A stretch of DNA of 64,000 nucleotides from a virus (IMGVR_UViG_3300042542_005523); one strand, 5' to 3'. Counted from the first letter of the stretch, positions 5,310-49,783 are shown. A program made the numbers and translations. Notes: a model not told the origin generated them from the sequence alone.

Positions 5310-5822
5310 TTAGATCAACTGAGATCCGCTTCCTTTTTTGGTTCCCTTTGGTACATTTCCTGTTAGATCCCCCCATTCAAAAATCACGTCTCCGTCTGTT
5401 GTCATATAGACAGATTTAGACTCGCTAGGCGTGTTGTAGATTTCCATTGTGCACCATTTATCTGGCTCTTGCCTGTAGCTTATAGAAACCCCCGACCCGT
5501 AGTATGGGTTATCAAAAGCTTTAATGGCTTTCTCTGGCAGAATGTAATGAATGGTTTGTAGTATGCCATCCGACCATTTCATGATCTGATATGCTTTACT
5601 GTCACCAGATTTAACCAGATCTAGAGCTTCACTTCTAAGGGCTCTTTCTTCTTCCTGATTTTCCGTTTCCTTCATCTTCAATTCAGTGCCGGTTTTTCCA
5701 ATTAGGCTGGCTAATTGTTTTGCGGCTTCAACCATTCTAGGTGTTTTGTTTCTCATCTTGTTATCCGTTGAGCTATCTGTGTCCATTTCAAATAGCTGCT
5801 TAAAGCTTTTTAGTGTTTTCAT
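5310..5822 (-). CDS. Hypothetical protein with capsid-targeting-like N-terminus
   Basis: MKTLKSFKQLFE; GATATATA on the minus strand at 5828-5835. Confidence 0.8.
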   Translation of the reverse strand: MKTLKSFKQLFEMDTDSSTDNKMRNKTPRMVEAAKQLASLIGKTGTELKMKETENQEEERALRSEALDLVKSGDSKAYQIMKWSDGILQTIHYILPEKAIKAFDNPYYGSGVSISYRQEPDKWCTMEIYNTPSESKSVYMTTDGDVIFEWGDLTGNVPKGTKKGSGSQLI

Positions 5823-5827
5823 GTCTT

Positions 5828-5875
5828 TATATATCAGTTCCGTCCAAAAATTAAGTCACTTGAGCGTGATATATA
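5828..5875. promoter_or_regulatory. Divergent pair of GATATATA motifs (putative phage late promoters)
   Basis: TATATATC at 5828-5835 and GATATATA at 5868-5875 between divergent genes; the motif recurs upstream of many genes in the window. Confidence 0.6.
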
Positions 5876-5880
5876 AAGAT

Positions 5881-6876
5881 ATGAAACATATTAGGATATT
5901 TGAATCCGCTTCAGAGAAACTATACCACGGTAACAGGAAAGGTGATTTCCCGCCGTCTAAGAAGAGATTCGCAGATGCTATATTCCTAACATCTAGTTTG
6001 GATTTTGCAAAGGATTTTGCAGGATTTAACGATGGCGATGAGTTTCCAGATGGTGCAGTGTGGGAGGTTGAATTAAAAGAGCTTCTGAATCTCTGCAATC
6101 CAATGGAAACCAAAACGATGATTGAGCTGAATCTAAAGGAAGTCATCCAAAAGATGATCGACGATAAGTATGTTGATGAAGCAAGCGGGACAAAGTTTAA
6201 TGAGGTCGGAGGATCTGGCTTTAAAGGATACGACCCAGATGAAGACAGAGAGTTTGATTTGAAAGATAAATCAGAGAGTGTCTATTTTTATCTATGGAGA
6301 ATAAAGAACGGGGCTTGGAGAATAATCGAGTGCAACCCGGTTATTGAGAGGATCAAGGAATCTGGATTTGATGGGTTCTATATAGTGGAGAGAGGAGCTA
6401 AAAACGTGGCGATCTTTGACGAGAAGTCTATAAAAAGCTTTGAAAAAATTCTAGATCATAAGGAATTAACACCAGACAAAATTAGCGAATCCCGTTTATA
6501 CGTTGGTAGCAGATCAGGAAGCATGAGACACATTAAGAAATTTGAGTCTTTATTTCGAGGCAGCACAAACGAGAACGAGTCCTGGACAGGTGATCTATAC
6601 GATGGCAATATAACATTCGAATTTAGTTATAAGGAACTAGGCTTGGATAAACTCACAGAGGAGTTTTATAAGAAGAGCGGCATTCCCAGAGAGTACATCT
6701 TGAACGAGCTTATCTATTTTATAGAGATGGATGCGGAGGGGGATGATTTAACGGGCTATATAGCGGACTATCAAAAAGACAGACTGGGTCTAATAAGGTC
6801 CAATTGGGATTCATTGGACAGCGAGGAGCAGAGAGAGTTTACAGTCAAGGATAGATTTAGAAGAAGATTAATATAA
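5881..6876 (+). CDS. ADP-ribosyltransferase-like (ART-PolyVal-type) domain protein fused to a second small domain
   Basis: LYHG...IFLTSSLDFAKDFA...VWEVEL...GFDG...VAIFDEKSIK pattern; start moved to MKHIRIFES; second signal-like MRHIKKFESLF in frame at 6523. Confidence 0.55.
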   Translation: MKHIRIFESASEKLYHGNRKGDFPPSKKRFADAIFLTSSLDFAKDFAGFNDGDEFPDGAVWEVELKELLNLCNPMETKTMIELNLKEVIQKMIDDKYVDEASGTKFNEVGGSGFKGYDPDEDREFDLKDKSESVYFYLWRIKNGAWRIIECNPVIERIKESGFDGFYIVERGAKNVAIFDEKSIKSFEKILDHKELTPDKISESRLYVGSRSGSMRHIKKFESLFRGSTNENESWTGDLYDGNITFEFSYKELGLDKLTEEFYKKSGIPREYILNELIYFIEMDAEGDDLTGYIADYQKDRLGLIRSNWDSLDSEEQREFTVKDRFRRRLI

Positions 6877-19563: not shown

Positions 19564-20295
19564 ATGATTTTAAATTTAGATTTTACTAAAGAGGAACCCA
19601 ATATGAAAACACATTGGAGAAGCGGAAATCCATGGGGTGTTATACATCCAGCATTTCCTTACCAGTACAATGCGGAATATTGTGTGAGACATAAGAAGGG
19701 TATTGGTCTTTCACTTAAGTGCGAAAGTGTGGATTCAGTTGAGGTCATAGGACCGAATGGAGTCATTTATTATCCGGATTGTGCAATGGGATTGGTTAGT
19801 AGTAAGTTCCACTTTAAATACGGAAGGCTGGATGTTGAAGCAATATTACCTAAGGGTAAAGGTCTTTGGCCGGCTATATGGACAACAGCCTATGATTCAT
19901 GGCCACCCGAGATCGATATAGTTGAAGGATATTCGGAGGATAGAGACAACTATGGTAATTTAGTAATTCCTGGGATCAGACTGCAATCGAATGTTCATTA
20001 CAAAGAAGGTGAAAACAATCGCAATATCGGGGGAAGAAACCATTGGATGTGGAAGAATCCAACTAAGCACAAAATAAAATATTCTCTGTTATGGACCCCA
20101 GAAAAAATAGAAATATTCTACAACGATTGCAAAGTTAGAAGCGTAGACGACCCAAAAATACTAGAGGGATTCAATAATTCAGCTGGACAATACATAGTTC
20201 TTAACAATGCAATACAGCCAGAAAAATGGGACGGTGGTACCTCTGAATTTATCGTAAGCAGCTTAACTCTGGAAACTGAAAGACTGATTTGGTGA
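19564..20295 (+). CDS. Glycoside hydrolase family 16 (beta-glucanase-like)
   Basis: FKYGRLDVEAILPKGKGLWPAIW...WPPEIDIVEG (EIDxxE catalytic motif). Confidence 0.88.
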   Translation: MILNLDFTKEEPNMKTHWRSGNPWGVIHPAFPYQYNAEYCVRHKKGIGLSLKCESVDSVEVIGPNGVIYYPDCAMGLVSSKFHFKYGRLDVEAILPKGKGLWPAIWTTAYDSWPPEIDIVEGYSEDRDNYGNLVIPGIRLQSNVHYKEGENNRNIGGRNHWMWKNPTKHKIKYSLLWTPEKIEIFYNDCKVRSVDDPKILEGFNNSAGQYIVLNNAIQPEKWDGGTSEFIVSSLTLETERLIW

Positions 20296-20502
20296 TTAAT
20301 AGTTCGGGTGCCAGGAATCCCAAGAACATACCTGCTCCTCTCTTACTACAGTCTTAACGTGTAGATCCTGATTTTCATAGAGATCATATCCGATTTCTTT
20401 GAAATAATCCAGAGCTTTTTCTACACATGATGCTGTAGTTTCTAAAATCTTTTCATTCTCATCGTATAGAGCATAGATTGTCATTTGTGGATAATTGGAC
20501 AT
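20296..20502 (-). CDS. Small hypothetical protein
   Basis: 68-aa ORF. Confidence 0.5.
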   Translation of the reverse strand: MSNYPQMTIYALYDENEKILETTASCVEKALDYFKEIGYDLYENQDLHVKTVVREEQVCSWDSWHPNY

Positions 20503-28484: not shown

Positions 28485-29306
28485 ATGAAAAACGTACATT
28501 TGTTACCAACAGACAAACCAAGCAGGTTATATAACAATAATGGTCAATTGCATTTAGATAGTGTTTCAACAACTTCTAATGGACATACGATTAACCAAAA
28601 CATCTACATCACTAATGATGAGGAGATTAAATTTGATGATTATTATTTAGGTGAAGATAATAATCTTTATTGTTTAGTATCTAAAGTTAATTCTAATGGT
28701 AAAAAAATCATTTTAACAACAGACCAAGAATTAATAGATGAGGGTATTCAACCTATAGATGATGAGTTCTTAGAATGGTTTGTTAAGAATCCAAATTGTG
28801 AGGAAGTTTTTCTTACTTATGAGTATGTGCAAGTCAATCAAGGCAATCCAATATTAAGAGGTAGTACTAATGTATCACATAGGTACGAAATCATCATTCC
28901 ACAAGAAGAACCTAAACAAGAAACACTCTCAACTAAATTGCATATAGGTGAAGTAGTTGATGAATCATACCCAGAAGCATTTAGAAAACAAGAAACACTT
29001 GAAGAACCTAAACAAGAAACACTCTCAACTAAATTGCATATAGGTGAAGTAGTTGATGAATCATACCCAGAAGCATTTAGAAAACAAGAAACACTTGAAG
29101 AAGCTGCTATTTTAAACTGCCAAAGTATAACTCATCCTTATTGTGATAGAGAAAAATTAATGTTTATTAAAGGTGCTAAATGGCAAGAGGAGAGAATGTA
29201 TAATGAGGAAGAAGTATTAGAAATCATAAGACAATATGCTCTTGAAGAACATTTAATAACATCAAGTAAACCTGATATATGGTTTGAACAATTTAAAAAG
29301 AAATAG
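28485..29306 (+). CDS. Hypothetical phage protein with KQETL repeats
   Basis: MKNVHLLPTDKPSRL start; internal exact 32-aa duplication. Confidence 0.75.
   Translation: MKNVHLLPTDKPSRLYNNNGQLHLDSVSTTSNGHTINQNIYITNDEEIKFDDYYLGEDNNLYCLVSKVNSNGKKIILTTDQELIDEGIQPIDDEFLEWFVKNPNCEEVFLTYEYVQVNQGNPILRGSTNVSHRYEIIIPQEEPKQETLSTKLHIGEVVDESYPEAFRKQETLEEPKQETLSTKLHIGEVVDESYPEAFRKQETLEEAAILNCQSITHPYCDREKLMFIKGAKWQEERMYNEEEVLEIIRQYALEEHLITSSKPDIWFEQFKKK
28905..29096 (+). repeat. Perfect 96-bp tandem duplication
   Basis: 28905-29000 is identical to 29001-29096. Confidence 0.95.
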
Positions 29307-29309
29307 GTT

Positions 29310-29687
29310 ATGATACAGGACAAAGAAAATCAAACACCACCAATAGCTGCAGCTATCGTAGTAATGGCAATATTAATTGGAATCTCATTTGCTATTTTTA
29401 AAGCGGGGGAACGTGGAGCCTCCGATAAACAACATTATGAGCAACCCGCTATCTCAGACTCGGTAAAACCAGCTCCAGAACAACCCCATGAATCAAAGGA
29501 GGATAGTTTAATAAAACAGCTATATCCTATTTGTGTGGTTGAAGTAAATAAATCTACTCATAAAGAGTATAAGTGGGAAGTGGTAGCAGAGAATGGTTTG
29601 ATGTATTATACCAATAAGAAACCAAAAATTGGTGATCCTGCTTTTTATATCGGCAGTGACAGCGAAACGTTATATTGGACTAAATAA
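29310..29687 (+). CDS. Membrane-anchored hypothetical protein
   Basis: Single N-terminal TM helix. Confidence 0.7.
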   Translation: MIQDKENQTPPIAAAIVVMAILIGISFAIFKAGERGASDKQHYEQPAISDSVKPAPEQPHESKEDSLIKQLYPICVVEVNKSTHKEYKWEVVAENGLMYYTNKKPKIGDPAFYIGSDSETLYWTK

Positions 29688-29708
29688 GTTACGGATAAAG
29701 AAGAAAAA

Positions 29709-29834
29709 ATGGATCGAATAGAAATACACTGGATGACACTTATAGTAAGTACAGTCTTATTAGCGCTACTGTTAGCCCGTCTTATAAAGGAACACATACA
29801 GGAAAAGCGCTGGGAAAATAGAAATCGTAAATAG
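29709..29834 (+). CDS. Small membrane protein (41 aa)
   Basis: Hand-translated MDRIEIHWMTLIVSTVLLALLLARLIKEHIQEKRWENRNRK. Confidence 0.45.
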   Translation: MDRIEIHWMTLIVSTVLLALLLARLIKEHIQEKRWENRNRK

Positions 29835-29862
29835 AAAGTTACGGTACAAAGATAAAACAACT

Positions 29863-30048
29863 ATGGAGAAGTTAATAACGAAATTAAAGACCTTGCAAGA
29901 CAGGCAAAAGGAATTAATGTCTATGATGGCAGAAGAAAAGTATGACAATTTTATTTCCGTTTTAAGGGCTAAAGGATATGCTGATAGCATTATAGAATTA
30001 GAGGCAAAAATAGAAGTTTTAATGGATGCTATATCCATATTAAGATAG
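29863..30048 (+). CDS. Small coiled-coil hypothetical protein
   Basis: 61-aa ORF. Confidence 0.6.
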   Translation: MEKLITKLKTLQDRQKELMSMMAEEKYDNFISVLRAKGYADSIIELEAKIEVLMDAISILR

Positions 30049-30169
30049 CAGTAAAACAATATACATCGGTGTTACTGCGGGAATCACACATATATTTGCA
30101 AAATAAATTAAAAAAGGATCTGAAAAAGACCGAAACAAAAAAGAGAATCTGATATATAAAAACCAAACA

Positions 30170-30319
30170 ATGAGAAACACTCAGAAAAATATGGCAATTA
30201 TTAACCCGGCGAATCCGAAAGGATTTATCGCAGAGGCAGTGAAGCAGCAAGGCTTTTTTGCGTGGGAGAAAGGGATATGCCCAGGTCTGGAGTTTCGATT
30301 TAGTTTACAGGAAAGATAA
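30170..30319 (+). CDS. Candidate leader peptide 1 (49 aa) of tRNA array 1
   Basis: Hand-translated MRNTQKNMAIINPANPKGFIAEAVKQQGFFAWEKGICPGLEFRFSLQER; GATATATA at 30151-30158; overlaps attenuator segment A. Confidence 0.75.
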   Translation: MRNTQKNMAIINPANPKGFIAEAVKQQGFFAWEKGICPGLEFRFSLQER

Positions 30320-30376
30320 GATTTAAACTAAATATCACATTGAAACTCCAGATCGAAAGTCTGGAGTTTTTTTTTT
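30286..30376 (+). promoter_or_regulatory. Attenuator 1: mutually exclusive antiterminator (A:B) and terminator (B:C + T10)
   Basis: A TCTGGAGTTTC 30286-96; inner stem 30298-307/30324-33; B GAAACTCCAGA 30342-52; C TCTGGAGTTT 30360-69; T run 30367-76. Confidence 0.8.
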
Positions 30377-30380
30377 ACAT

Positions 30381-30454
30381 GGGGTTATAGCTTAAATCGG
30401 TGAGAGCGACGGTCTGAAAAACCGTAGATCCGGACTCGAGGCCCGGTATCCCCA
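30381..30454 (+). tRNA. tRNA-Phe(GAA), atypical T-arm
   Basis: Anticodon arm ACGGT-CTGAAAA-ACCGT; T-loop CTCGAGG. Confidence 0.75.
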
Positions 30455-30495
30455 CAAAAGAATCTGATCAACGGATTAGATGCAGAAGATTAAAT

Positions 30496-30569
30496 ACATC
30501 ATTGGTGAAATTGGCTAATCATCTTGGACTCCAAATCCAAGGTTCTGGGTTCGAATCCTAGATGGTGTG
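30496..30569 (+). tRNA. tRNA-Trp(CCA)
   Basis: TTGGA-CTCCAAA-TCCAA; canonical T-arm. Confidence 0.92.
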
Positions 30570-30602
30570 CAGAAATAAGTTCTTTGACATATTGGAAACC
30601 AT

Positions 30603-30675
30603 AATTCCTTAGCTCAGTTGGTAGAGCGCCTCCCTTACATGGAGGAGGCCGCAGGTTCGAGCCCTGCAGGGATTA
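30603..30675 (+). tRNA. tRNA-Val(TAC)
   Basis: CCTCC-CTTACAT-GGAGG; full cloverleaf. Confidence 0.93.
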
Positions 30676-30684
30676 CTTAATTAT

Positions 30685-30757
30685 GCTCGGTTCGTCTAGA
30701 GGCCTAGGACATCCCCCTTTCACGGGGAAAACATGGATTCGAATTCCATACCGAGTA
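30685..30757 (+). tRNA. tRNA-Glu(TTC)
   Basis: TCCCC-CTTTCAC-GGGGA; full cloverleaf. Confidence 0.92.
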
Positions 30758-30830
30758 CAAACATATTAAACAAGAAATTGCCTCGCTAAACTAACCAGGT
30801 TTAGCAAGACAAAAACAGGTTTAGCATAAT

Positions 30831-30918
30831 GACCTCGTGGCGCAATTGGTAGCGCAACTGACTTTTAATCAGTAGGGAAGCTGTATAGCCGTTGTGGGTT
30901 CGAGCCCCACCGGGGTCA
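30831..30918 (+). tRNA. tRNA-Lys(TTT) with 20-nt variable region
   Basis: ACTGA-CTTTTAA-TCAGT; variable region 30874-30893. Confidence 0.85.
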
Positions 30919-30924
30919 CTTTAG

Positions 30925-31033
30925 CGATGGTGGTAACGCGCTTTGAGGAGAAAGTAGCTTTGGACCTGCAAGTCCAGTCAAGCGAAGAGTATCCAATTAG
31001 GAGGATAATTCCACTCGTCACTTGCAGGTGACG
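30925..31033 (+). ncRNA. Candidate structured RNA with complementary hairpin loops
   Basis: Hairpins TGGAC-CTGCAA-GTCCA and CGTCAC-TTGCAG-GTGACG with complementary loops, plus two more stems. Confidence 0.55.
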
Positions 31034-31038
31034 TAAAT

Positions 31039-31112
31039 GGGGTAGTAGCTCAGCTGGTTAGAGCACATGACTGTTAATCATGTGGTCATAGGTTCGAATC
31101 CTATCTACCCCG
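31039..31112 (+). tRNA. tRNA-Asn(GTT)
   Basis: CATGA-CTGTTAA-TCATG. Confidence 0.95.
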
Positions 31113-31119
31113 CTAAAAA

Positions 31120-31192
31120 GCGGAAGTAGCTCAATTGGTAGAGCGCGGCCTTGCCAAGGCCGAGGTTGCCGGATCATTCCCGGTCTTCCGCT
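31120..31192 (+). tRNA. tRNA-Gly(GCC)
   Basis: CGGCC-TTGCCAA-GGCCG; T-loop ATCATTC. Confidence 0.88.
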
Positions 31193-31200
31193 CAAAAAAT

Positions 31201-31273
31201 GCGATAGTAGCTCAATTGGTAGAGCACCGTCCTTCCAAGTCGGGGGTCGCAGGTTCGAGCCCTGTCTATCGCT
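31201..31273 (+). tRNA. tRNA-Gly(TCC)
   Basis: Loop CTTCCAA; acceptor GCGATAG/CTATCGC. Confidence 0.92.
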
Positions 31274-31284
31274 CACCCAAAGAT

Positions 31285-31356
31285 AGCGAGGTAGCTCAGA
31301 GGCAGAGCAACCGACTCATATTCGGTAGGTCAGGATCTCGGAATTCCTCCTCGCTA
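31285..31356 (+). tRNA. tRNA-Met or Ile2 (CAT), atypical T-arm
   Basis: ACCGA-CTCATAT-TCGGT; T-loop CTCGGAA; lacks initiator hallmarks. Confidence 0.72.
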
Positions 31357-31362
31357 CTATAT

Positions 31363-31433
31363 TGTCCCTTCGTCTAAGGGCAGGACAGCTGATTTTGATT
31401 CAGCTAATGGTGGTTCGAATCCATCAGGGACAA
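31363..31433 (+). tRNA. tRNA-Gln(TTG)
   Basis: GCTGA-TTTTGAT-TCAGC. Confidence 0.92.
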
Positions 31434-31444
31434 CAATTTAAAAT

Positions 31445-31519
31445 ACTCAGGTAGCTCAATTGGTTAGAGCACCTCGCTGATACCGAGGAGGCCTGAAGGT
31501 TCGAGTCCTTCTCTGAGTA
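31445..31519 (+). tRNA. tRNA-Ile(GAT)
   Basis: CCTCG-CTGATAC-CGAGG. Confidence 0.92.
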
Positions 31520-31526
31520 CTTAATT

Positions 31527-31601
31527 CGGGATGTAGATCAGTTGGATTAGATCGCCTGGTTTGGGACCAGGAGGCCGCAGGTTCGAGTCCTGCTATCCCG
31601 A
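31527..31601 (+). tRNA. tRNA-Pro(TGG)
   Basis: CCTGG-TTTGGGA-CCAGG. Confidence 0.94.
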
Positions 31602-31608
31602 CTAAAAT

Positions 31609-31681
31609 GGGCCGGTAGCTTAAGAGGCTAAAGCGCTGCACTTGCAATGCAGAATATTGGGTTCGAGTCCCACCGTGTCCA
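31609..31681 (+). tRNA. tRNA-Ala(TGC), irregular acceptor stem
   Basis: CTGCA-CTTGCAA-TGCAG; G3-U70 identity pair present. Confidence 0.82.
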
Positions 31682-31689
31682 CTAAATTT

Positions 31690-31762
31690 GCTCTCATAGC
31701 TCAATGGTCAGAGTCGGACGCTTATATCGTCAAGGTTGCAGGTTCGAGTCCTGTTGGGAGTA
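31690..31762 (+). tRNA. tRNA-Ile(TAT)
   Basis: GACG-CTTATAT-CGTC; canonical T-arm and acceptor. Confidence 0.85.
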
Positions 31763-31889
31763 CAAGTTTCCAATATAAAATTAAAAGTTCATCTGGTTTT
31801 CTGCGGAATCCTGTTCTATATTTGTAAAGTAATTAAAAACTTAGGCATGAAGGAAGGAAAGGAGTTTAAACTAAAAAAGGGTAACTAGA

Positions 31890-31988
31890 ATGGATCAAAT
31901 CGGACACGTCGTTCTCTTTACAATAATAGGATTGCTAATAGCAATGTTAGTATATCTAGCGGCATGGCAACCTAAAAAATGGAAATAA
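31890..31988 (+). CDS. Small membrane peptide (32 aa)
   Basis: Hand-translated MDQIGHVVLFTIIGLLIAMLVYLAAWQPKKWK. Confidence 0.45.
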   Translation: MDQIGHVVLFTIIGLLIAMLVYLAAWQPKKWK

Positions 31989-32210
31989 TGGGATACTGGC
32001 TCTGGGCAGATTGAAAACACACAGGTTAAAATCCTGTACTGATTACAAAAATAAAACCTCAACAAATAAAGTTGTGAGTTGTATTGAAATAGCCAATTAT
32101 AAGCCAACATAAAGCTGTTGGGTGCAGATGGAGTAATTAACCAGGAGCGCAGGCACTGATTGTGACGGTACAACAAATACCCCTCTGAGTTTGGGTTTTA
32201 TTTTAAATAT

Positions 32211-32308
32211 AGTTAGGTGGCGGAATGGTAGACGCACAAGACGGGCGATGCATTTAAAACAGAAATAAGCCTGGTCGGTTTTTACAGGTTCGAATCCTGT
32301 CCTGACTG
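32211..32308 (+). ncRNA. tRNA-like element 1 (48-nt central insert, no anticodon loop)
   Basis: AGTTAGG-TGGCGGAATGGTAGACGC-[insert]-ACAGGTTCGAATCCTGT-CCTGACT-G. Confidence 0.78.
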
Positions 32309-32321
32309 CTAAAAGAAAGTT

Positions 32322-32564
32322 ATGAATAAAATAGAGAATTACAATTTTGACAAAAATGATTGGGCACATTTCCATGATGTTATTTTAGATGTGACTTGGA
32401 ATGATGGTAAAGTGAATCTAAATCAAAAAGAAATGGAACAATTATTTTGGGAGTTACCAGAAGATATGAGAATTGATGCTCAAAAATATGGTATGAATGA
32501 TACACCTTGGAGAGATAGTCTGCGGGTATGGTATGAACGAAATAAAATGGGTAAGACTGTTTAA
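32322..32564 (+). CDS. Hypothetical protein
   Basis: 80-aa ORF between tRNA-like elements. Confidence 0.7.
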   Translation: MNKIENYNFDKNDWAHFHDVILDVTWNDGKVNLNQKEMEQLFWELPEDMRIDAQKYGMNDTPWRDSLRVWYERNKMGKTV

Positions 32565-32579
32565 TTGGTTATAAAACAT

Positions 32580-32698
32580 AGTCAGGTGGCGGAATTGGTA
32601 GACGCTGCTGTGGGGCGACACCACTCTTTTAAAAACAGCATAAGCTCTTGCAATGATGTACACATTGCAAGGTACAGGTTCAAGTCCTGTCCTGACTA
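32580..32698 (+). ncRNA. tRNA-like element 2 (68-nt central insert)
   Basis: Same scaffold; TGCTG/CAGCA stem with expanded loop and 9-bp CTTGCAATG/CATTGCAAG arm. Confidence 0.78.
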
Positions 32699-32700
32699 CT

Positions 32701-32779
32701 CTGGGCTCAGTAAAGCCTCTTATCGTAAGATAACGTAACTGAAGTGGATAACCTAGAAATAGGTGACGCTCCACTATGG
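32701..32779 (+). ncRNA. Candidate structured RNA with two GNRA hairpins
   Basis: TTATC-GTAA-GATAA inside TCAGT/ACTGA; ACCTA-GAAA-TAGGT inside AGTGGA/TCCACT. Confidence 0.55.
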
Positions 32780-32859
32780 AGTCAGGTGGCGCAATTGGAA
32801 AACGCAACTCGCGGTGTACACAGAGGAGTGAATTACAGGTTCGAGTCCTGTCCTGACTA
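32780..32859 (+). ncRNA. tRNA-like element 3 (29-nt central insert)
   Basis: Same scaffold; ACTC/GAGT stem with 15-nt loop. Confidence 0.75.
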
Positions 32860-32861
32860 CA

Positions 32862-33070
32862 CGTTCCGACTAATCATCGGATAGTATGCCTCATACGATG
32901 AGAAGTGGTGTGATAGCCACAGAGGAGAGTTGAAGGTTCGTATATACAAACCTTCCAGTTGACTACTGACGTCGGTAAAACCCTTCACGAGGGGAGCAAG
33001 ACAGTCTATTCCTAACTCAGCAATGAGGACAGCCATATCACCTGTAAGTTGGATAAATTAGGGTGTTTTT
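32862..33070 (+). ncRNA. Candidate multi-hairpin structured RNA (about 205 nt)
   Basis: At least six hand-found hairpins and long-range CCGAC/GTCGG and TAGT/ACTA pairings; no ORF. Confidence 0.55.
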
Positions 33071-33074
33071 ATAT

Positions 33075-33237
33075 AGTCAGGTGGCGGAATTGGTAGACGC
33101 TATCGTACTCAAGTAAGGCAAAGCAATGTAGATGAAACGTCGTCGCATGGTGAGTTAACACCTAAAAGTCTTTGGACTTGAAATCCAAAAAACCTTGAGT
33201 ATGTTCTACGATACAGGTTCGAATCCTGTCCTGACTA
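33075..33237 (+). ncRNA. tRNA-like element 4 (112-nt central insert)
   Basis: Same scaffold; insert closed by TACTCAAG/CTTGAGTA; contains TTTGGA-CTTGAAA-TCCAAA. Confidence 0.78.
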
Positions 33238-33262
33238 CAAAAATTAAAATCTAAGGTAATAA

Positions 33263-33544
33263 ATGAAATGCTACGAATGTAAACACAGAGGAAATGTAAT
33301 AGGCTCAGCTCATAGCAGCTGTGGTGTTATCAGAAGCACAGGTAGTGAGAAGGGACAGGAGTTAGAATTCATGCTGGCGATGGGGCAGGTCGAAATGAAA
33401 GATCAAGATGGTAACCCTATTGTTGATATAGACCCTCATGGTATTCAAAACGGATGGGCTGCTTGGCCTATAGATTTCGATCCAGTTTGGATAAGATCCT
33501 GTAAATTCTATACAGAAAAAGAGAAAACAGGTGAATTGAAATAA
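33263..33544 (+). CDS. Cys-containing hypothetical phage protein
   Basis: CYECKHR...SAHSSC...GWAAWPIDFDPVWIRSC. Confidence 0.75.
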   Translation: MKCYECKHRGNVIGSAHSSCGVIRSTGSEKGQELEFMLAMGQVEMKDQDGNPIVDIDPHGIQNGWAAWPIDFDPVWIRSCKFYTEKEKTGELK

Positions 33545-33553
33545 ATAACATAT

Positions 33554-33627
33554 GCTACCGTGGTGTAACTGAATAACACGTCTAACTACGGATTAGAAGA
33601 GCGAGGGTTTGAATCCTTCCGGTAGTA
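33554..33627 (+). tRNA. tRNA-Arg(ACG)
   Basis: TCTAA-CTACGGA-TTAGA. Confidence 0.9.
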
Positions 33628-33685
33628 CAAAAAATAATCGAAATTAGAAGAAACAAAAAGATGTTCTGATATATAATAACATAAT

Positions 33686-33778
33686 ATGAAAAACTTGATC
33701 CATACATCCTTACATTTATCCACCACGAGTACCACTTGTGATTCGGATTTATTGTGGAGGAGGCTAATGGATCAATAA
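33686..33778 (+). CDS. Candidate leader peptide 2 (30 aa) of tRNA array 2
   Basis: Hand-translated MKNLIHTSLHLSTTSTTCDSDLLWRRLMDQ; GATATATA at 33668-33675. Confidence 0.78.
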   Translation: MKNLIHTSLHLSTTSTTCDSDLLWRRLMDQ

Positions 33779-33830
33779 TAATATTGAATTTTGATTCTGA
33801 AAAAGCCTCCCCTAAAAAGGAGGCTTTTTT
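33755..33830 (+). promoter_or_regulatory. Attenuator 2: antiterminator (A:B) versus terminator (B:C + T run)
   Basis: A GGAGGCT 33759-65; inner TCAATA-ATAA-TATTGA; B AAAAAGCCTCC 33800-10; C GGAGGCTTTTTT 33819-30. Confidence 0.8.
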
Positions 33831-33860
33831 ATTGGCTCTTTGATTTATTAGATTTAACAC

Positions 33861-33944
33861 GGAAGAGGAATCACAGCGGCCTGTGAGCTAGTCTTGAAAA
33901 CTATGCGTACCTCCGGGTATTGGGATCGACACCTACCTCTTCCG
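33861..33944 (+). tRNA. tRNA-Ser(TGA), 8/4 acceptor/T-stem type
   Basis: GGAAGAGG/CCTCTTCC 8 bp; T-stem TGGG/CCTA 4 bp; loop CTTGAAA; 6-bp D-stem; variable arm. Confidence 0.8.
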
Positions 33945-33952
33945 CTTTTTCC

Positions 33953-34028
33953 GGGGCCTGTGGTGTAATGGCTTGCATAACACACTGTCACTGTGTAGGT
34001 CGGGGTTCGAATCCCCCAGGTCCCGCCA
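33953..34028 (+). tRNA. tRNA-Asp(GTC), 8/4 type, encoded CCA
   Basis: GGGGCCTG/CAGGTCCC 8 bp; GGGG/CCCC T-stem; ACACA-CTGTCAC-TGTGT; G73 then CCA. Confidence 0.85.
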
Positions 34029-34030
34029 AT

Positions 34031-34118
34031 GGAAGATGATCCTAAACGGAGATAGGATCCGCCTGCTAAGCGAGATGTTCGGGTAAAACCGGATGAGGTT
34101 CGATCCCTCCGTCTTCCG
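34031..34118 (+). tRNA. tRNA-Ser(GCT), 8/4 type
   Basis: GGAAGATG/CGTCTTCC 8 bp; GAGG/CCTC T-stem; loop CTGCTAA; variable arm. Confidence 0.8.
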
Positions 34119-34123
34119 CAAAC

Positions 34124-34196
34124 TCCAGAGTAGCTCAATTGGTAGAGCCCTTGTTTTGTAAACAAGTGGTTGTCGGTTCGATTCCGTCCTCTGGAT
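34124..34196 (+). tRNA. tRNA-Thr(TGT)
   Basis: CTTGT-TTTGTAA-ACAAG. Confidence 0.92.
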
Positions 34197-34201
34197 CTAA
34201 T

Positions 34202-34274
34202 GACACCGTGTCTGAATGGTTTAGGTCCAGGTCTGCAAAACCTTGGTACGTGGGTTCGAATCCCTCCGGTGTCT
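34202..34274 (+). tRNA. tRNA-Cys(GCA)
   Basis: Loop CTGCAAA; acceptor GACACCG/CGGTGTC. Confidence 0.9.
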
Positions 34275-34280
34275 CTATAT

Positions 34281-34355
34281 GGTGTCTATAGTGTCAGCGG
34301 TATAGCACGACGGGTTGTGGTTCCGTTAGCACCAGTTCGAATCTGGTTAGACACA
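34281..34355 (+). tRNA. tRNA-His(GTG)
   Basis: ACGGG-TTGTGGT-TCCGT; G-1 encoded, discriminator A rather than the usual bacterial C. Confidence 0.88.
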
Positions 34356-34362
34356 CTAATAA

Positions 34363-34447
34363 GCCCCGGTGGCGAAACAGGCTATACGCACCAGACTTAA
34401 GATCTGGCGATCAGTGAATCGTGTGGGTTCGAATCCCACCCGGGGTA
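34363..34447 (+). tRNA. tRNA-Leu(TAA)
   Basis: CCAGA-CTTAAGA-TCTGG; variable arm. Confidence 0.93.
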
Positions 34448-34479
34448 CATAATTTTTTGTACTTTGATATATAGGTATT

Positions 34480-35079
34480 ATGATTGAAGGATACAAAAAA
34501 TACCAAAACGGATTTGTCAAAGACCCAGCTTCTTACTTGTTAAAAGAAGAAGAAAACGTTACTGCCAGCACAAGCCTGGTAACACCGAAAACTCTTAATG
34601 ATTTTTCGGAATCAATATCATCCTCCCTGAATGAGAGAATCGGTGACGAGTATGCTGCTCACTATTTCTATAGAAATGCTGCCAATTGGTGTAAAAATGT
34701 CAATTATAAAAATGCCACAGCATATTTTGAAGCTGAGGCTGCCAGCGAATTAGATCACGCTAAGGGATTACAAGACTACCTGACACAGTGGAACCTAATG
34801 CCTGCTATTCCTGCTGCTCCAACGCAGCATTCTTTTGAAAATCTAGCAGATATTATCAATAAGGCTTACGAGATAGAGTATGAGTTAATGCTTAAATACT
34901 CCGACAATCAAAAAGAGTTCTTAAATGATCACCCAGCAACTTTCAATTTTATTCAGAAATATGTTGATATACAGAATGAAGCTGTTGCTGAATACTCGGA
35001 TCTTTTAAATGCTCTTAATCTAGTGGACATCAACAATAGATTGGATGTCCTTTACTTCGAGAACAATTACTTCGGATAG
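34480..35079 (+). CDS. ftnA: Non-heme ferritin
   Basis: ERIGDEYAAHYFY...EAASELDHA...EIE...QNEA ferroxidase-centre pattern. Confidence 0.8.
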   Translation: MIEGYKKYQNGFVKDPASYLLKEEENVTASTSLVTPKTLNDFSESISSSLNERIGDEYAAHYFYRNAANWCKNVNYKNATAYFEAEAASELDHAKGLQDYLTQWNLMPAIPAAPTQHSFENLADIINKAYEIEYELMLKYSDNQKEFLNDHPATFNFIQKYVDIQNEAVAEYSDLLNALNLVDINNRLDVLYFENNYFG

Positions 35080-35093
35080 TAATTAGTTACCCG

Positions 35094-35513
35094 TTACAAT
35101 TCTTTAGAAAAGGTTAGACCCGCATATCCTCTCGAGAAATCGAAAGAGAAGTTCGTGTTTGGTATGTAAACTGATGCTCCTAAATATTTACTATTTCCAG
35201 TTTCATCCTGCCAATCGTCTACGTATATCTCAATTCCCTTGTTTGCCAATAAGTCTGAAGCTTTGGATATGAAATCTGGATCATCTGGCTTAAACTTTAT
35301 GATCTGCGATTTTATTGACGAGTCCATTGATATCTTAGGTACGTTCAGCAGAGATTTTTTAAAATCAGAATTCATCTTTAGATAGTCGACTTTACCAAAT
35401 TTTGGAGCCTCTATCTTAAAATTAGTTAGAGACATTTTTGGATCTGGTTTAACTGTGGTAGACTGCCCACCCTCATTTATAAAATCTTCGAAAAGTTTTA
35501 TGTTTTTCATCAC
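35094..35513 (-). CDS. Hypothetical protein with capsid-targeting-like N-terminus
   Basis: MKNIKLFEDFINE. Confidence 0.78.
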   Translation of the reverse strand: MMKNIKLFEDFINEGGQSTTVKPDPKMSLTNFKIEAPKFGKVDYLKMNSDFKKSLLNVPKISMDSSIKSQIIKFKPDDPDFISKASDLLANKGIEIYVDDWQDETGNSKYLGASVYIPNTNFSFDFSRGYAGLTFSKEL

Positions 35514-35612
35514 TGATTTTTTATTTTATATATCGAGAGAATCCCTTTGTAAATGAATAAATAAAGGAGGACCCGGATTTTTAAGGGTTCTTTTCAGTAT
35601 AATAAAAGAACT

Positions 35613-36122
35613 ATGGAAAATCGACTTGACGGTAACTGGAGAAGACTAACAGATTCACAAGAAATTGAATTGCTGTCTTATATTAAATCCTGGATGGACG
35701 AAAATCCAGGACACAAGATCTATATTGGATGTGACTCCCAAAACAAGGGCAGATCTACAACTTATGCAACTGTCATAGTTCTACACTATCCTAGCGGTGG
35801 TGGACACGTCTTGTACAAAAAAGAGAAAATCGAAAAGGTGTCATCCAGTTTCGAGAGGCTCTGGAAAGAAGTAGAGCTTAGTGTGGAAATTGCTAATCTT
35901 TTAATAGATTCAGGTCTAGGTAAACCCGATTGCATAGACGTCGATCTAAATCCAGATCCGAGATACAACTCAAATCAATTACTAAGAGCAGCTGTTGGTC
36001 TTATAGAATCCATGGGGATTCAGGCTAGATATAAATCGAAATCGCCATGGGCTATTAGTATAGCTGACACTATGTGTAAAAGTAAGACGGGTAAGAAACC
36101 AAGAAAAAAACCAGTTAGATAA
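35613..36122 (+). CDS. Ribonuclease H-like YkuK family protein
   Basis: IYIGCDSQ...TYATVIVLH...RLWKEVELS...IDVDLN...ADTMC. Confidence 0.85.
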   Translation: MENRLDGNWRRLTDSQEIELLSYIKSWMDENPGHKIYIGCDSQNKGRSTTYATVIVLHYPSGGGHVLYKKEKIEKVSSSFERLWKEVELSVEIANLLIDSGLGKPDCIDVDLNPDPRYNSNQLLRAAVGLIESMGIQARYKSKSPWAISIADTMCKSKTGKKPRKKPVR

Positions 36123-49163: not shown

Positions 49164-49783
49164 TGGGAACTGCCAAATATAATTCAGGATTAAAAAAATA
49201 TAAAGATCTCCATAGAGGTTCCGAATTTGTATTAATCGCTACTGGTCCAACTTTAAATAAATTTCATAAATTCGATGAATATGAAAAAACAATAAAAGTT
49301 GGTGTTAATAAGATTTATGACAATCCAATAATAAATGATCTTGATTACTATTTCTTCGGTAGCGACTATTATCTTAATAGTGAGCATCGAGAAAAAATAG
49401 AAAAATTAAGTCCCGATATTAACAAGTTTTCATCAGTCTACAGAGACGGCAGTGAAACCGGTCTTGGAAATATAAATAGAAGCGATTCGGATAGATTAAA
49501 TTGTACACCCTTTGAATGCTGCTTGGATAGATTTCCCGACGATCAGGCAGATGACAAATTACTAGGTCATAGCATAATATTCCCAGCTATTCAAATTATT
49601 CTATATATGGGAGCATCCAAAGTATACCTAGTTGGATGTGATCTAAACGAGCATGCATCAGAATTACCACATTGGTGGAATGAATTCAAAAAATGGAAAG
49701 ATTATAAATATCCGCATGTGGGGATATCAGTAATAAACGCTATTGGATTAAGCGGAATATTTGATGGGTATACAGAAATATAA
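49163..49783 (+). CDS. DUF115/Maf-like (nonulosonate transferase-related) protein
   Basis: LIATGPTL, VGVN, AIQIILYMGASKVYLVGCD. Confidence 0.6.
   Translation: MGTAKYNSGLKKYKDLHRGSEFVLIATGPTLNKFHKFDEYEKTIKVGVNKIYDNPIINDLDYYFFGSDYYLNSEHREKIEKLSPDINKFSSVYRDGSETGLGNINRSDSDRLNCTPFECCLDRFPDDQADDKLLGHSIIFPAIQIILYMGASKVYLVGCDLNEHASELPHWWNEFKKWKDYKYPHVGISVINAIGLSGIFDGYTEI

What the first reader, a model, noticed from the sequence alone, without database searches (positions are those of the whole stretch)
30170..34447. Candidate new system: codon-matched leader-peptide attenuators that sense the tRNA pool and gate two phage tRNA arrays
Seen: both arrays have the same architecture, GATATATA then a short ORF, then segment A inside the ORF 3' end, then B, then C with a T run, then tRNAs. 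Array 1 supplies F,W,V,E,K,N,G,G,M,Q,I,P,A,I, and leader-1 residues 5-36 use only and all of those 12 amino acids. Array 2 supplies S,D,S,T,C,H,L, and leader-2 residues 6-23 use only and all of those 6. The two sets are disjoint, and Tyr is absent from both leaders and both arrays. Rough odds under uniform usage are 0.6^32 (about 1e-7) and 0.3^18 (about 4e-10), with windows chosen post hoc. Established: in trp/his-type attenuation a ribosome stalled upstream frees the antiterminator. Inference: if any host tRNA in a set is depleted, for example by anti-phage anticodon nucleases or phage translational demand, the ribosome stalls before A, A:B forms, and the phage transcribes the replacement set. 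Classical attenuators sense one or a few amino acids for biosynthetic operons. I know of no description of multi-codon leaders controlling tRNA arrays, but could not search the literature.
Basis: partly seen in the sequence, partly recalled or inferred. Interest (0 to 1): 0.96.

Follow-up and report, generated by a model that had tools for sequence, protein, structure and literature searches.

The report
Leader-peptide attenuators gating phage tRNA arrays
In this lake-water giant phage each block of tRNA genes sits behind a tiny translated test gene, spelled in exactly the amino acids those tRNAs carry and wired to a terminator/antiterminator switch, so the phage probably makes a tRNA set only when ribosomes read those codons slowly, a control I could not find described for tRNA genes.

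Summary
Leader 1 (30170-30319) uses, in codons 5-36, exactly the 12 amino acids of the 14 tRNAs behind it. Leader 2 (33686-33778) uses, in codons 6-23, exactly the 6 amino acids of its 7 tRNAs. Of 588 tests (294 small ORFs against both sets) across the whole window, the two leaders rank first and second (p<=8e-6 and <=2.6e-5). Each ORF ends 22-23 nt before an intrinsic terminator. A copy of the terminator's 3' arm lies in the last codons of each ORF, forming an antiterminator.

In nine leader/array pairs from related IMG/VR phages with differently partitioned arrays, leader composition follows array content (Fisher p=4e-13, the window excluded). Phages whose arrays cover all amino acids have leaders containing all 20. 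Codon boxes of Leu, Ser and Arg also follow the anticodons supplied (19 of 23), which points to tRNA sensing rather than amino-acid sensing. One relative (L112) breaks the rule.

My own test also found the design in cultured Caulobacter phages phiCbK and CcrColossus. It was absent from two other phages.

Eight literature searches found no description. This scan has noted the same class on other DNA (113 notes, at least 88 genomes). Translation and read-through remain untested.

The parts
30150..30158 (+). TGATATATA motif 11 nt before the leader-1 start codon. It may be a phage promoter or initiation element. A Bacteroidota-type -7 box-like TATATTTG lies further upstream at 30091-30098.
   Evidence: 7 copies against 2.1 expected; upstream regions. 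The function is not tested.
30170..30319 (+). Leader-1 ORF, 49 codons
30182..30277 (+). Sensing core of leader 1, codons 5-36. It contains 32 codons, all and only the 12 amino acids of array 1. All 32 codons are decodable by the array's anticodons under strict wobble.
30285..30308 (+). Segment A of leader 1, the antiterminator 5' strand, inside codons 39-47. Its 11-nt core at 30285-30295 is a copy of the terminator 3' arm.
   Evidence: dG A:B -19.7 kcal/mol, p=0.002
30325..30353 (+). Segment B of leader 1. Its right part, 30342-30353, is the terminator 5' arm. It pairs either with A or with C.
30342..30376 (+). Intrinsic terminator 1: a 12-bp stem, a 5-nt loop and a T run. It starts 22 nt after the leader's stop codon.
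30381..31763 (+). tRNA array 1: Phe Trp Val Glu Lys Asn Gly Gly Met Gln Ile Pro Ala Ile
33667..33675 (+). TGATATATA motif 10 nt before the leader-2 start codon
33686..33778 (+). Leader-2 ORF, 30 codons
33701..33754 (+). Sensing core of leader 2, codons 6-23. It contains 18 codons, all and only His Thr Ser Leu Cys Asp. All four Leu codons are TTR, matching Leu(UAA). Both Ser boxes are used, matching Ser(UGA) and Ser(GCU).
33695..33714 (+). Segment 1 of leader 2. In the ribosome-free fold it pairs with the A region, so the terminator forms. This is a trp-like 1:2 pairing.
33759..33775 (+). Segment A of leader 2, codons 25-30. GGAGGCU at 33759-33765 is a copy of the terminator 3' arm. GGAUCAA pairs with 33791-33797.
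   Evidence: dG -13.2 kcal/mol, p=0.006
33800..33834 (+). Intrinsic terminator 2, with its 5' arm (B) at 33802-33810, its 3' arm (C) at 33819-33827, and a T run. The stem starts 23 nt after the stop codon.
33861..34448 (+). tRNA array 2: Ser(UGA, atypical) Asp Ser(GCU) Thr Cys His Leu(UAA)

Best explanation
Both elements are ribosome-dependent (trp-type) transcription attenuators that control phage tRNA operons. Transcription starts just upstream of a short leader ORF, and a ribosome follows the polymerase.

If every codon of the sensing core is decoded quickly, the ribosome reaches the end of the ORF and covers segment A. Segment B then pairs with C, the terminator forms, and the tRNA array is not transcribed. 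If any codon of the core is decoded slowly, or the summed transit time is too long, the ribosome lags upstream of A. A then pairs with B, the terminator cannot form, and the array is transcribed.

The core is spelled in exactly the amino acids, and largely the codon boxes, served by the tRNAs behind it. Each array is therefore switched on by a shortage of its own kind of tRNA and switched off again by its own products. This makes each unit a negative-feedback regulator of decoding capacity, one per tRNA subset.

Shown here: the ORFs, the terminators, the competing pairings, the composition match and its covariation across relatives. Inferred: translation of the leaders, the direction of the switch, and tRNA supply rather than amino-acid supply as the sensed quantity. 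The cause of shortage is unknown; candidates are host tRNA decay during infection, codon demand of the phage, and tRNA-cleaving defence.
For: (1) Composition match in the window: p<=7.9e-6 and <=2.6e-5. The two leaders rank 1 and 2 of 588 ORF-by-set tests. Swapping the sets within the phage drops the in-set runs from 32 and 18 to 2 and 2.

(2) Covariation. Nine leaders from related IMG/VR contigs gave p-values that combine to 4e-13 by Fisher's method. The leaders were found by a rule: an ORF ending before a terminator that precedes a tRNA; where frames overlapped I chose one. Examples:
- L019 core LEVVKTKMEGADSL matches the 10 tRNA identities that follow.
- L104 has three leaders. The core of the second, INMIVDNGIGANEK, matches 9 of 9; the core of the third, LSLYSSSSYLLL, precedes Leu Leu Ser Ser Tyr.
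- L108 has one leader of 47 in-set residues lacking Ala and Gly, with Glu only at its end; Ala, Gly and Glu sit behind the other leader.
- In the closest relative, L095, Thr and Asp tRNAs sit in the first array and its leader has T and D. Its Glu and Met tRNAs lie elsewhere, no Ala tRNA was detected in the stretch fetched, and the core lacks E, M and A.

(3) Phages whose array covers all amino acids (L022/L106, L103, L096) have 44-48-aa leaders with all 20 amino acids. The chance of this is 0.6-1.3% for each.

(4) Codon level: 269 of 304 core codons are readable by the unit's anticodons under strict wobble, and 298 of 304 if U34 reads four ways. Where only one codon box of Leu, Ser or Arg is supplied, 19 of 23 leader codons lie in that box.

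(5) Structure. In 15 of 18 leaders the nascent-RNA fold pairs the terminator 5' arm with a segment in the last codons of the ORF, although the sequences differ in every lineage. Duplex energy against shuffles gives p<=0.054 in 15 of 16 cases (Fisher p 3e-15). The spacing from stop codon to terminator stem is 19-33 nt throughout.

(6) A window-wide scan finds this cassette only at the two array heads.

(7) The same design occurs in cultured Caulobacter phages phiCbK and CcrColossus, at p<=1.3e-5 and <=2.6e-5.

(8) The pipeline finds nothing at the tRNA arrays of Vibrio phage D479 and Pseudomonas phage PA5oct.
Against: There is no expression evidence. Metatranscriptome contigs cover parts of the arrays but not the leaders, and contigs cannot show 3' ends.

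Each amino acid occurs only 1-5 times and is dispersed, unlike the codon runs of his or phe leaders, so sensitivity to a single tRNA may be low.

Codons 2-4 (K/R, N, T) and the residues inside A are often outside the set.

In leader 2, five Ser and Thr codons (TCC, ACC, ACT) need four-way wobble by U34.

There is one exception to tracking. L112 leader b keeps Glu and Asp codons although the Asp and Glu tRNAs lie in another cluster. L109 has C and W in its leader although the Cys and Trp tRNAs lie more than 4 kb downstream.

In leader 1 the ribosome-free fold is the antiterminator, so a failure to initiate translation would also give read-through.

Some tRNA identities rest on relaxed ARAGORN calls.
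Confidence: 0.8

Rival explanations
1. The attenuators are real but sense amino-acid starvation (uncharged tRNA), as classical attenuators do, rather than the size of the tRNA pool. The phage would raise tRNA synthesis as part of a general starvation response.
For: The mechanism reads aminoacyl-tRNA availability, which falls in either case. The amino-acid-level match is exact, whereas the codon-level match is incomplete in leader 2.
Against: Making more tRNA does not relieve a lack of amino acid. Leaders follow the codon box of the supplied isoacceptor for Leu, Ser and Arg in 19 of 23 cases. Leader 1 uses only R-ending codons for Val, Pro and Ala, matching the U34 anticodons. A pure amino-acid sensor has no need for either feature.
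Confidence: 0.1
2. The cassettes are general sensors of translation capacity or infection timing. They would open whenever ribosomes are scarce or slow for any reason, and the composition match would be secondary.
For: In leader 1 the ribosome-free fold is the antiterminator, so any loss of translation opens it. The dispersed codons integrate overall speed.
Against: A general sensor needs no set-specific composition. Disjoint sets within one phage, their covariation with array content and the all-20 leaders are unexplained by this reading.
Confidence: 0.06
3. The short ORFs are chance frames or encode small proteins with their own function. The hairpins would be ordinary terminators of upstream genes, and the composition match a coincidence.
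For: The ORFs are short and unannotated. phiCbK gp083 is annotated only as a hypothetical protein.
Against: The combined p over relatives is 4e-13 and the window calibration supports the test. A:B complementarity is conserved while the sequences diverge. The peptide sequence is not conserved between relatives but the composition rule is.
Confidence: 0.02

Closest known systems
Multivalent leader-peptide transcription attenuators of enterobacterial amino-acid operons (ilvGMEDA leader sensing Ile/Leu/Val, thr leader sensing Thr/Ile; also trpL, hisL, leuL, pheL). Named from textbook knowledge.
   Same: A short translated leader, regulatory codons upstream of an antiterminator strand, a stop codon placed so that a terminating ribosome blocks the antiterminator, and an intrinsic terminator before the regulated genes. 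Leader 2 even has a trp-like protector pairing.
   Different: The regulated genes are tRNAs, not biosynthetic enzymes. The leader lists 2 to 20 different amino acids, each one to a few times, instead of runs of one to three. The output feeds back directly on the sensed quantity. The elements are phage-encoded. They do not reach the score of any Rfam leader family; the best is Phe_leader at 27.7 bits against a cut-off of 55.
pheST (phenylalanyl-tRNA synthetase) attenuation by the pheM leader in E. coli. Named from my own knowledge; not checked in a paper here.
   Same: Leader-peptide attenuation applied to a gene of the translation apparatus, giving feedback on aminoacyl-tRNA supply.
   Different: It uses a single amino acid and controls a protein-coding target in a bacterial chromosome. 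It does not control tRNA genes.
T-box riboswitches of Firmicutes
   Same: They couple tRNA status to transcription read-through by a terminator/antiterminator choice.
   Different: A T-box binds uncharged tRNA directly, needs no translation, and senses one tRNA per element. No T-box match was found here.
The same class noted by this scan on other DNA, including Caulobacter phage phiCbK gp083 plus terminator, which I tested here
   Same: A leader spelled in the amino acids of the downstream tRNAs, followed by a terminator.
   Different: The phage lineages and hosts are unrelated (Alphaproteobacteria against a probable Bacteroidota host), and there is no sequence similarity. These are unchecked AI notes except for phiCbK and CcrColossus.

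Membership tests
Ribosome-dependent (leader-peptide) transcription attenuator | Short ORF with a start codon at the 5' end of the transcription unit | tested here: met
   The ATG ORFs have 49 and 30 codons. The upstream regions are A-rich, and several relatives have TAnnTTTG-like boxes 4-70 nt upstream. Promoter activity is not tested.
Ribosome-dependent (leader-peptide) transcription attenuator | Intrinsic terminator between the leader and the regulated genes | tested here: met
   Hairpins with T runs lie at 30342-30376 and 33800-33834. All 18 leaders of relatives have one too, though there the terminator was a criterion of the search.
Ribosome-dependent (leader-peptide) transcription attenuator | Alternative antiterminator whose 5' strand overlaps the 3' end of the leader ORF | tested here: met
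   MFE of the nascent RNA; exact copies of the 3' arm in the ORF; duplex energy against shuffles, Fisher p 3e-15 over 16 leaders.
Ribosome-dependent (leader-peptide) transcription attenuator | Regulatory codons upstream of the antiterminator strand that relate to the regulated genes | tested here: met
   The cores end 7 nt (leader 1) and 4 nt (leader 2) before A. Their composition equals the array's tRNA set.
Ribosome-dependent (leader-peptide) transcription attenuator | Leader is translated, and read-through rises when the cognate aminoacyl-tRNA is limiting | not testable with these tools
   Only contigs of metatranscriptomes were available, and they were uninformative.
Curated Rfam leader families (Trp_leader, His_leader, Leu_leader, Thr_leader, Phe_leader) | Score at or above the family's gathering threshold | tested here: not met
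   The only hit is Phe_leader at 27.7 bits against 55, E=0.2, at 33770-33833.
T-box riboswitch | Match to the T-box covariance model (specifier loop and T-box sequence) | tested here: not met
   No T-box hit at E<=1 in 29000-36000.

The most novel reading that the evidence does not exclude
Codon-matched leader attenuators are a widespread and probably convergently evolved class of phage tRNA-supply regulators. They occur in freshwater phages of probable Bacteroidota hosts and in Caulobacter phiCbK-like phages. They read decoding capacity at isoacceptor resolution. They also serve as the trigger that deploys replacement tRNAs when host tRNAs are destroyed, either by the phage's own host shut-off or by tRNA-cleaving defence systems.
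Probability: 0.35. Interest if true: 0.95.

Novelty: new variant of a known kind. Interest (0 to 1): 0.88.

Why it matters
Why phages carry tRNAs has been debated for decades, with codon compensation, host tRNA decay and escape from anticodon nucleases all proposed. How those tRNAs are regulated is largely unknown.

A leader that lists the array's own amino acids implies that the phage measures decoding capacity and supplies tRNAs on demand, subset by subset. That turns the question of what phage tRNAs are for into a testable one: find which condition opens each attenuator.

The finding extends leader-peptide attenuation from one to three amino acids to as many as twenty, and from enzymes to tRNA genes. 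It gives a sequence rule for assigning tRNA genes to transcription units and for spotting atypical tRNAs; for example, the leader predicted the odd Tyr tRNA in L104. It also offers compact natural sensors of tRNA supply for synthetic biology. phiCbK and Caulobacter provide a cultured system for the experiments.

Tried and rejected
- DNA search of isolated phages with the whole region found only generic tRNA similarity and no relative. Protein search with the neighbouring gene found nothing among isolated phages. The ClpB-like gene hit only uncultured huge phages at 62% identity or less.
- No whole genome is held for the window.
- Relatives fetched through the ferritin-like gene (L001-L014) had no tRNA arrays nearby. 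Arrays were instead reached by searching whole contigs with the Rfam tRNA model.
- Laying reads from two metatranscriptomes and two metagenomes gave contigs over the tRNAs but none over the leaders, and no usable variant list for the leaders.
- The exact-copy test of A against C is significant in only about half of the leaders, because of G-U pairs. It was replaced by a duplex-energy test.
- Very relaxed ARAGORN calls were judged too weak to count: Ile(UAU) in L108 and Trp in L104 unit a.
- The strict definition of a unit (gaps of 400 nt or less) fails where homing-endonuclease ORFs or tRNA-like elements split an array. Units were therefore taken up to the next leader or a 3-kb gap.
- Rejected readings: chance ORFs, a generic bias of phage composition (excluded by disjoint sets within one phage), and T-box or known Rfam leader families.


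Full report
**What is there.** The window comes from a large phage. It encodes tail-fibre-like, ClpB-like, ferritin-like and RNase H-like proteins. Near-identical DNA occurs in lake-water metagenomes of 16 studies. There is no close cultured relative.

Between 30.1 and 34.5 kb lie two tRNA arrays on the + strand.
- Array 1 (30381-31763) holds Phe, Trp, Val, Glu, Lys, Asn, Gly(GCC), Gly(UCC), Gln, Ile(GAU), Pro, Ala and Ile(UAU) by ARAGORN. It also holds a Met(CAU) tRNA at 31285-31356 that only Rfam detects, at 50 bits.
- Array 2 (33861-34448) holds Asp, Ser(GCU), Thr, Cys, His and Leu(UAA). It also holds an atypical Ser(UGA) with an 8-bp acceptor stem, found only at a relaxed ARAGORN threshold.
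- Each array is preceded by TGATATATA, a short ATG ORF (30170-30319, 49 codons; 33686-33778, 30 codons) and an intrinsic terminator.

**Check of the observation.** Residues 5-36 of leader 1 use all and only the 12 amino acids of array 1. Residues 6-23 of leader 2 use all and only the 6 of array 2. The two sets are disjoint.

The windows were chosen after the fact, so I used a null that allows any run position and draws random amino-acid sets of the same size.
- The union bounds are 7.9e-6 and 2.6e-5.
- As a calibration I tested every ATG ORF of 20-60 codons in the window, on both strands, against both sets (588 tests). The two leaders rank first and second, each with its own array. The next best is 2.6e-3, and only 0.5% of tests fall below 0.01.
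- Swapping the sets between the two leaders drops the in-set runs from 32 and 18 to 2 and 2.

**Structure.**
- Leader 1: the 10-mer TCTGGAGTTT occurs at 30286 (A, inside codons 39-42) and at 30360 (C, the terminator 3' arm). Its complement is at 30343 (B). The fold of the full region pairs A with B in a long helix.
- Leader 2: GGAGGCT occurs at 33759 (A, codons 25-27) and at 33819 (C), with its complement at 33804 (B). Without a ribosome, A is held by an upstream segment (33695-33714) and the terminator forms, as in the trp leader.
- The stop codons lie 22 and 23 nt before the terminator stems. A ribosome at the stop would therefore cover A and leave B free to pair with C.
- A window-wide scan looked for a small ORF whose stop lies 13-40 nt before a terminator. 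It returns four places, and only the two leaders show significant A:B complementarity.

**Relatives.** Relatives were found through a neighbouring protein in IMG/VR. Their tRNA regions were located with the Rfam tRNA model on whole contigs and fetched.

An automatic rule picked candidate leaders: an ATG ORF of 12-90 codons ending up to 120 nt before a terminator hairpin that lies up to 250 nt before a tRNA. It found leaders in every contig that had an array.
- L019 has two leaders. One has the core NNIHINFSQWCQPYS and precedes Ile Asn Tyr Trp Phe Pro Gln His Ser Ile Arg Cys. The other has the core LEVVKTKMEGADSL and precedes Ser Asp Val Glu Thr Lys Met Ala Gly Leu, matching 10 of 10.
- L104 has three leaders.
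  - The first has core THTTCPQ and precedes Pro Thr Phe Gln His Cys.
  - The second has core INMIVDNGIGANEK and precedes Lys Val Asn Met Gly Glu Asp Met Ile Ala, matching 9 of 9.
  - The third has core LSLYSSSSYLLL and precedes Leu(UAG) Leu(UAA) Ser(UGA) Ser(GCU). After these comes an odd tRNA-like gene with anticodon loop CUGUAAA, that is Tyr, at L104 3964-4057. I recognised it only after the leader predicted it.
- L108 has one leader rich in A, E, G, L and R before Met Glu Met Arg Gly Ala Leu. Its second leader has 47 in-set residues lacking Ala and Gly, with Glu only at the end. It precedes a 17-amino-acid array that lacks exactly Ala, Glu and Gly.
- L095 is the closest relative (87% identity in the neighbouring protein). 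It has a single leader whose 27-residue core lacks A, E, M, R and Y. Its Met, Glu and Tyr tRNAs lie elsewhere on the contig. Thr and Asp are behind this leader in L095, whereas in the window they belong to array 2 and leader 2.
- Combining the nine leaders from relatives, without the window, gives Fisher p=4e-13. With the window it is 9e-20. Where frames overlapped I chose one. A penalty of three per locus would still leave about 1e-8.
- Four lineages whose arrays cover all amino acids have leaders of 44-48 residues. L022, L106, L103 and L096 contain all 20 amino acids and L102 contains 19. Only 0.6-1.3% of equally long segments of the phages' own proteins do so.

**Structure in relatives.** The terminator sequences differ in every lineage. 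Even so, in 15 of 18 leaders the fold of the nascent RNA pairs the terminator 5' arm with a segment in the last codons of the ORF. The duplex energy between that arm and the last 20 codons beats shuffles at p<=0.054 in 15 of 16 leaders (Fisher p=3e-15). The complementarity is thus maintained by compensating change, which is the strongest sequence-level evidence for a functional antiterminator.

**Codon level.**
- Of 304 core codons, 269 can be read by the unit's anticodons under strict wobble, and 298 if U34 reads all four codons of a box.
- In leader 1 all 32 codons fit strictly. All eight Val, Pro and Ala codons end in A or G, as the U34 anticodons require, although the phage's genes use such codons only about half the time.
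- For Leu, Ser and Arg, where a unit supplies only one of the two codon boxes, 19 of 23 leader codons fall in that box. Where it supplies both, both are used.
- This argues that the leaders are matched to tRNAs and not merely to amino acids. In leader 2, five Ser and Thr codons need four-way wobble.

**Exceptions and limits.**
- L112, a relative of L019, keeps Glu and Asp codons in leader b although its Asp and Glu tRNAs lie in another cluster.
- The L109 leader has Cys and Trp although those tRNAs lie more than 4 kb downstream.
- Codons 2-4 and the residues encoded by A are often out of set.
- Several tRNA identities rest on relaxed ARAGORN calls, and I did not count the weakest.
- RNA evidence is lacking. 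Contigs of two wetland metatranscriptomes cover parts of the arrays, not the leaders, and contigs cannot show 3' ends.

**Controls and breadth.** The same pipeline finds no matching ORF at the tRNA arrays of Vibrio phage D479 and Pseudomonas phage PA5oct; all p values exceed 0.1.

A note of this scan pointed to a Caulobacter phage, and I tested this myself.
- In phiCbK, the annotated hypothetical protein gp083 (49540-49677) is followed by an annotated terminator and then Pro Pro Thr Lys Lys Leu Leu Leu His Ala Ser Ser Ser. It has a 35-residue run in exactly A, H, K, L, P, S and T (p<=1.3e-5).
- In CcrColossus, a leader with core YRNNVRQIRVRQFN precedes Tyr Phe Val Ile Ile Val Gln Gln Asn Arg Arg Arg (p<=2.6e-5).
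- The design therefore occurs in unrelated phages of different host phyla, and a cultured system exists.
- The upstream regions of the freshwater leaders often carry TAnnTTTG-like boxes, which suggests a Bacteroidota host. That is an inference.

**Mechanism.** The best reading is a trp-type attenuator. Fast decoding of the core brings the ribosome onto A, the terminator forms, and the array stays off. Slow decoding leaves A free to pair with B, and the array is transcribed. Because the products are the tRNAs that decode the core, the loop is self-limiting.

With dispersed codons the leader probably integrates transit time over the whole set rather than responding to one codon. What causes shortage is open: host tRNA decay, phage codon demand or tRNA-cleaving defence.

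The main rival, amino-acid sensing, is disfavoured by the codon-box matching. A generic sensor of translation capacity does not explain the set-specific composition. Chance is excluded.

**Comparison with what is known.** The elements work like the multivalent leader-peptide attenuators of amino-acid operons, but they control tRNA genes and list up to 20 amino acids. They do not reach the score of any Rfam leader family or of the T-box model.

Eight full-text searches found no description of leader-peptide control of tRNA genes in phages or bacteria. The phiCbK genome paper (PMC3556154) does not mention attenuation and reports no RNA elements other than tRNAs. The searchable library lacks most subscription journals, so prior description cannot be excluded.

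This scan has noted the same class before on other DNA: 113 notes in at least 88 genomes, with several follow-ups that reached the same reading. Those notes are not independent evidence, except where I repeated the test.

**Verdict.** It is a new variant of a known mechanism, of high interest, and awaits experiment.

Noticed in passing
32211-32308, 32580-32698, 32780-32859, 33075-33237: Four tRNA-Leu-like elements share the same acceptor, D and T arms but carry unrelated inserts of 20-100 nt where the anticodon arm should be (Rfam tRNA 25-43 bits). The same kind of element lies in the arrays of relatives (L019 about 20100-20300, L095 about 5700-6000, L114, L116).
   Followed up: no
33861-33945; 31285-31356; 30831-30919: Three atypical tRNAs. 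Ser(UGA) has an 8-bp acceptor stem and a 4-bp T stem, and is missed by Rfam and by default ARAGORN. Met(CAU) has an unusual T loop and is missed by ARAGORN. Lys(UUU) is 89 nt long with a long variable region.
   Followed up: partly
5828, 5867, 22712, 26513, 30150, 33667, 34465: TGATATATA occurs 7 times against 2.1 expected. Three copies lie 6-11 nt before start codons: both leaders and the ferritin-like gene at 34480. It may be a phage promoter or an initiation signal.
   Followed up: partly
L104 3964-4057: A tRNA-Tyr(GUA)-like gene with normal acceptor, anticodon and T arms but no regular D arm. It scores 34.6 bits in Rfam on the contig search. Its presence was predicted by the Tyr codons of the leader in front of the unit.
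   Followed up: partly
L019 3100-3690; L022 about 930-1600; L096 (reverse strand) several: HNH-type and other homing-endonuclease-like ORFs interrupt the tRNA arrays of relatives without a new leader. One attenuator therefore seems to govern tRNAs on both sides of the insertion.
   Followed up: no
JX100813 (phiCbK) 49540-49677, locus L119 2541-2678: The annotated hypothetical protein gp083 of Caulobacter phage phiCbK is a leader of this kind. Rho-independent terminators are annotated directly before three of its tRNA groups.
   Followed up: yes
30920-31038: A 119-nt spacer lies between tRNA-Lys and tRNA-Asn inside array 1. Very relaxed ARAGORN sees a tRNA-like fold with a 4-nt anticodon. Its nature is unknown.
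   Followed up: no
33554-33628: tRNA-Arg(ACG) stands alone between the arrays, just upstream of leader 2 and after a 93-codon ORF. It has no leader of its own. Arg codons occur in both leaders only outside the cores.
   Followed up: no
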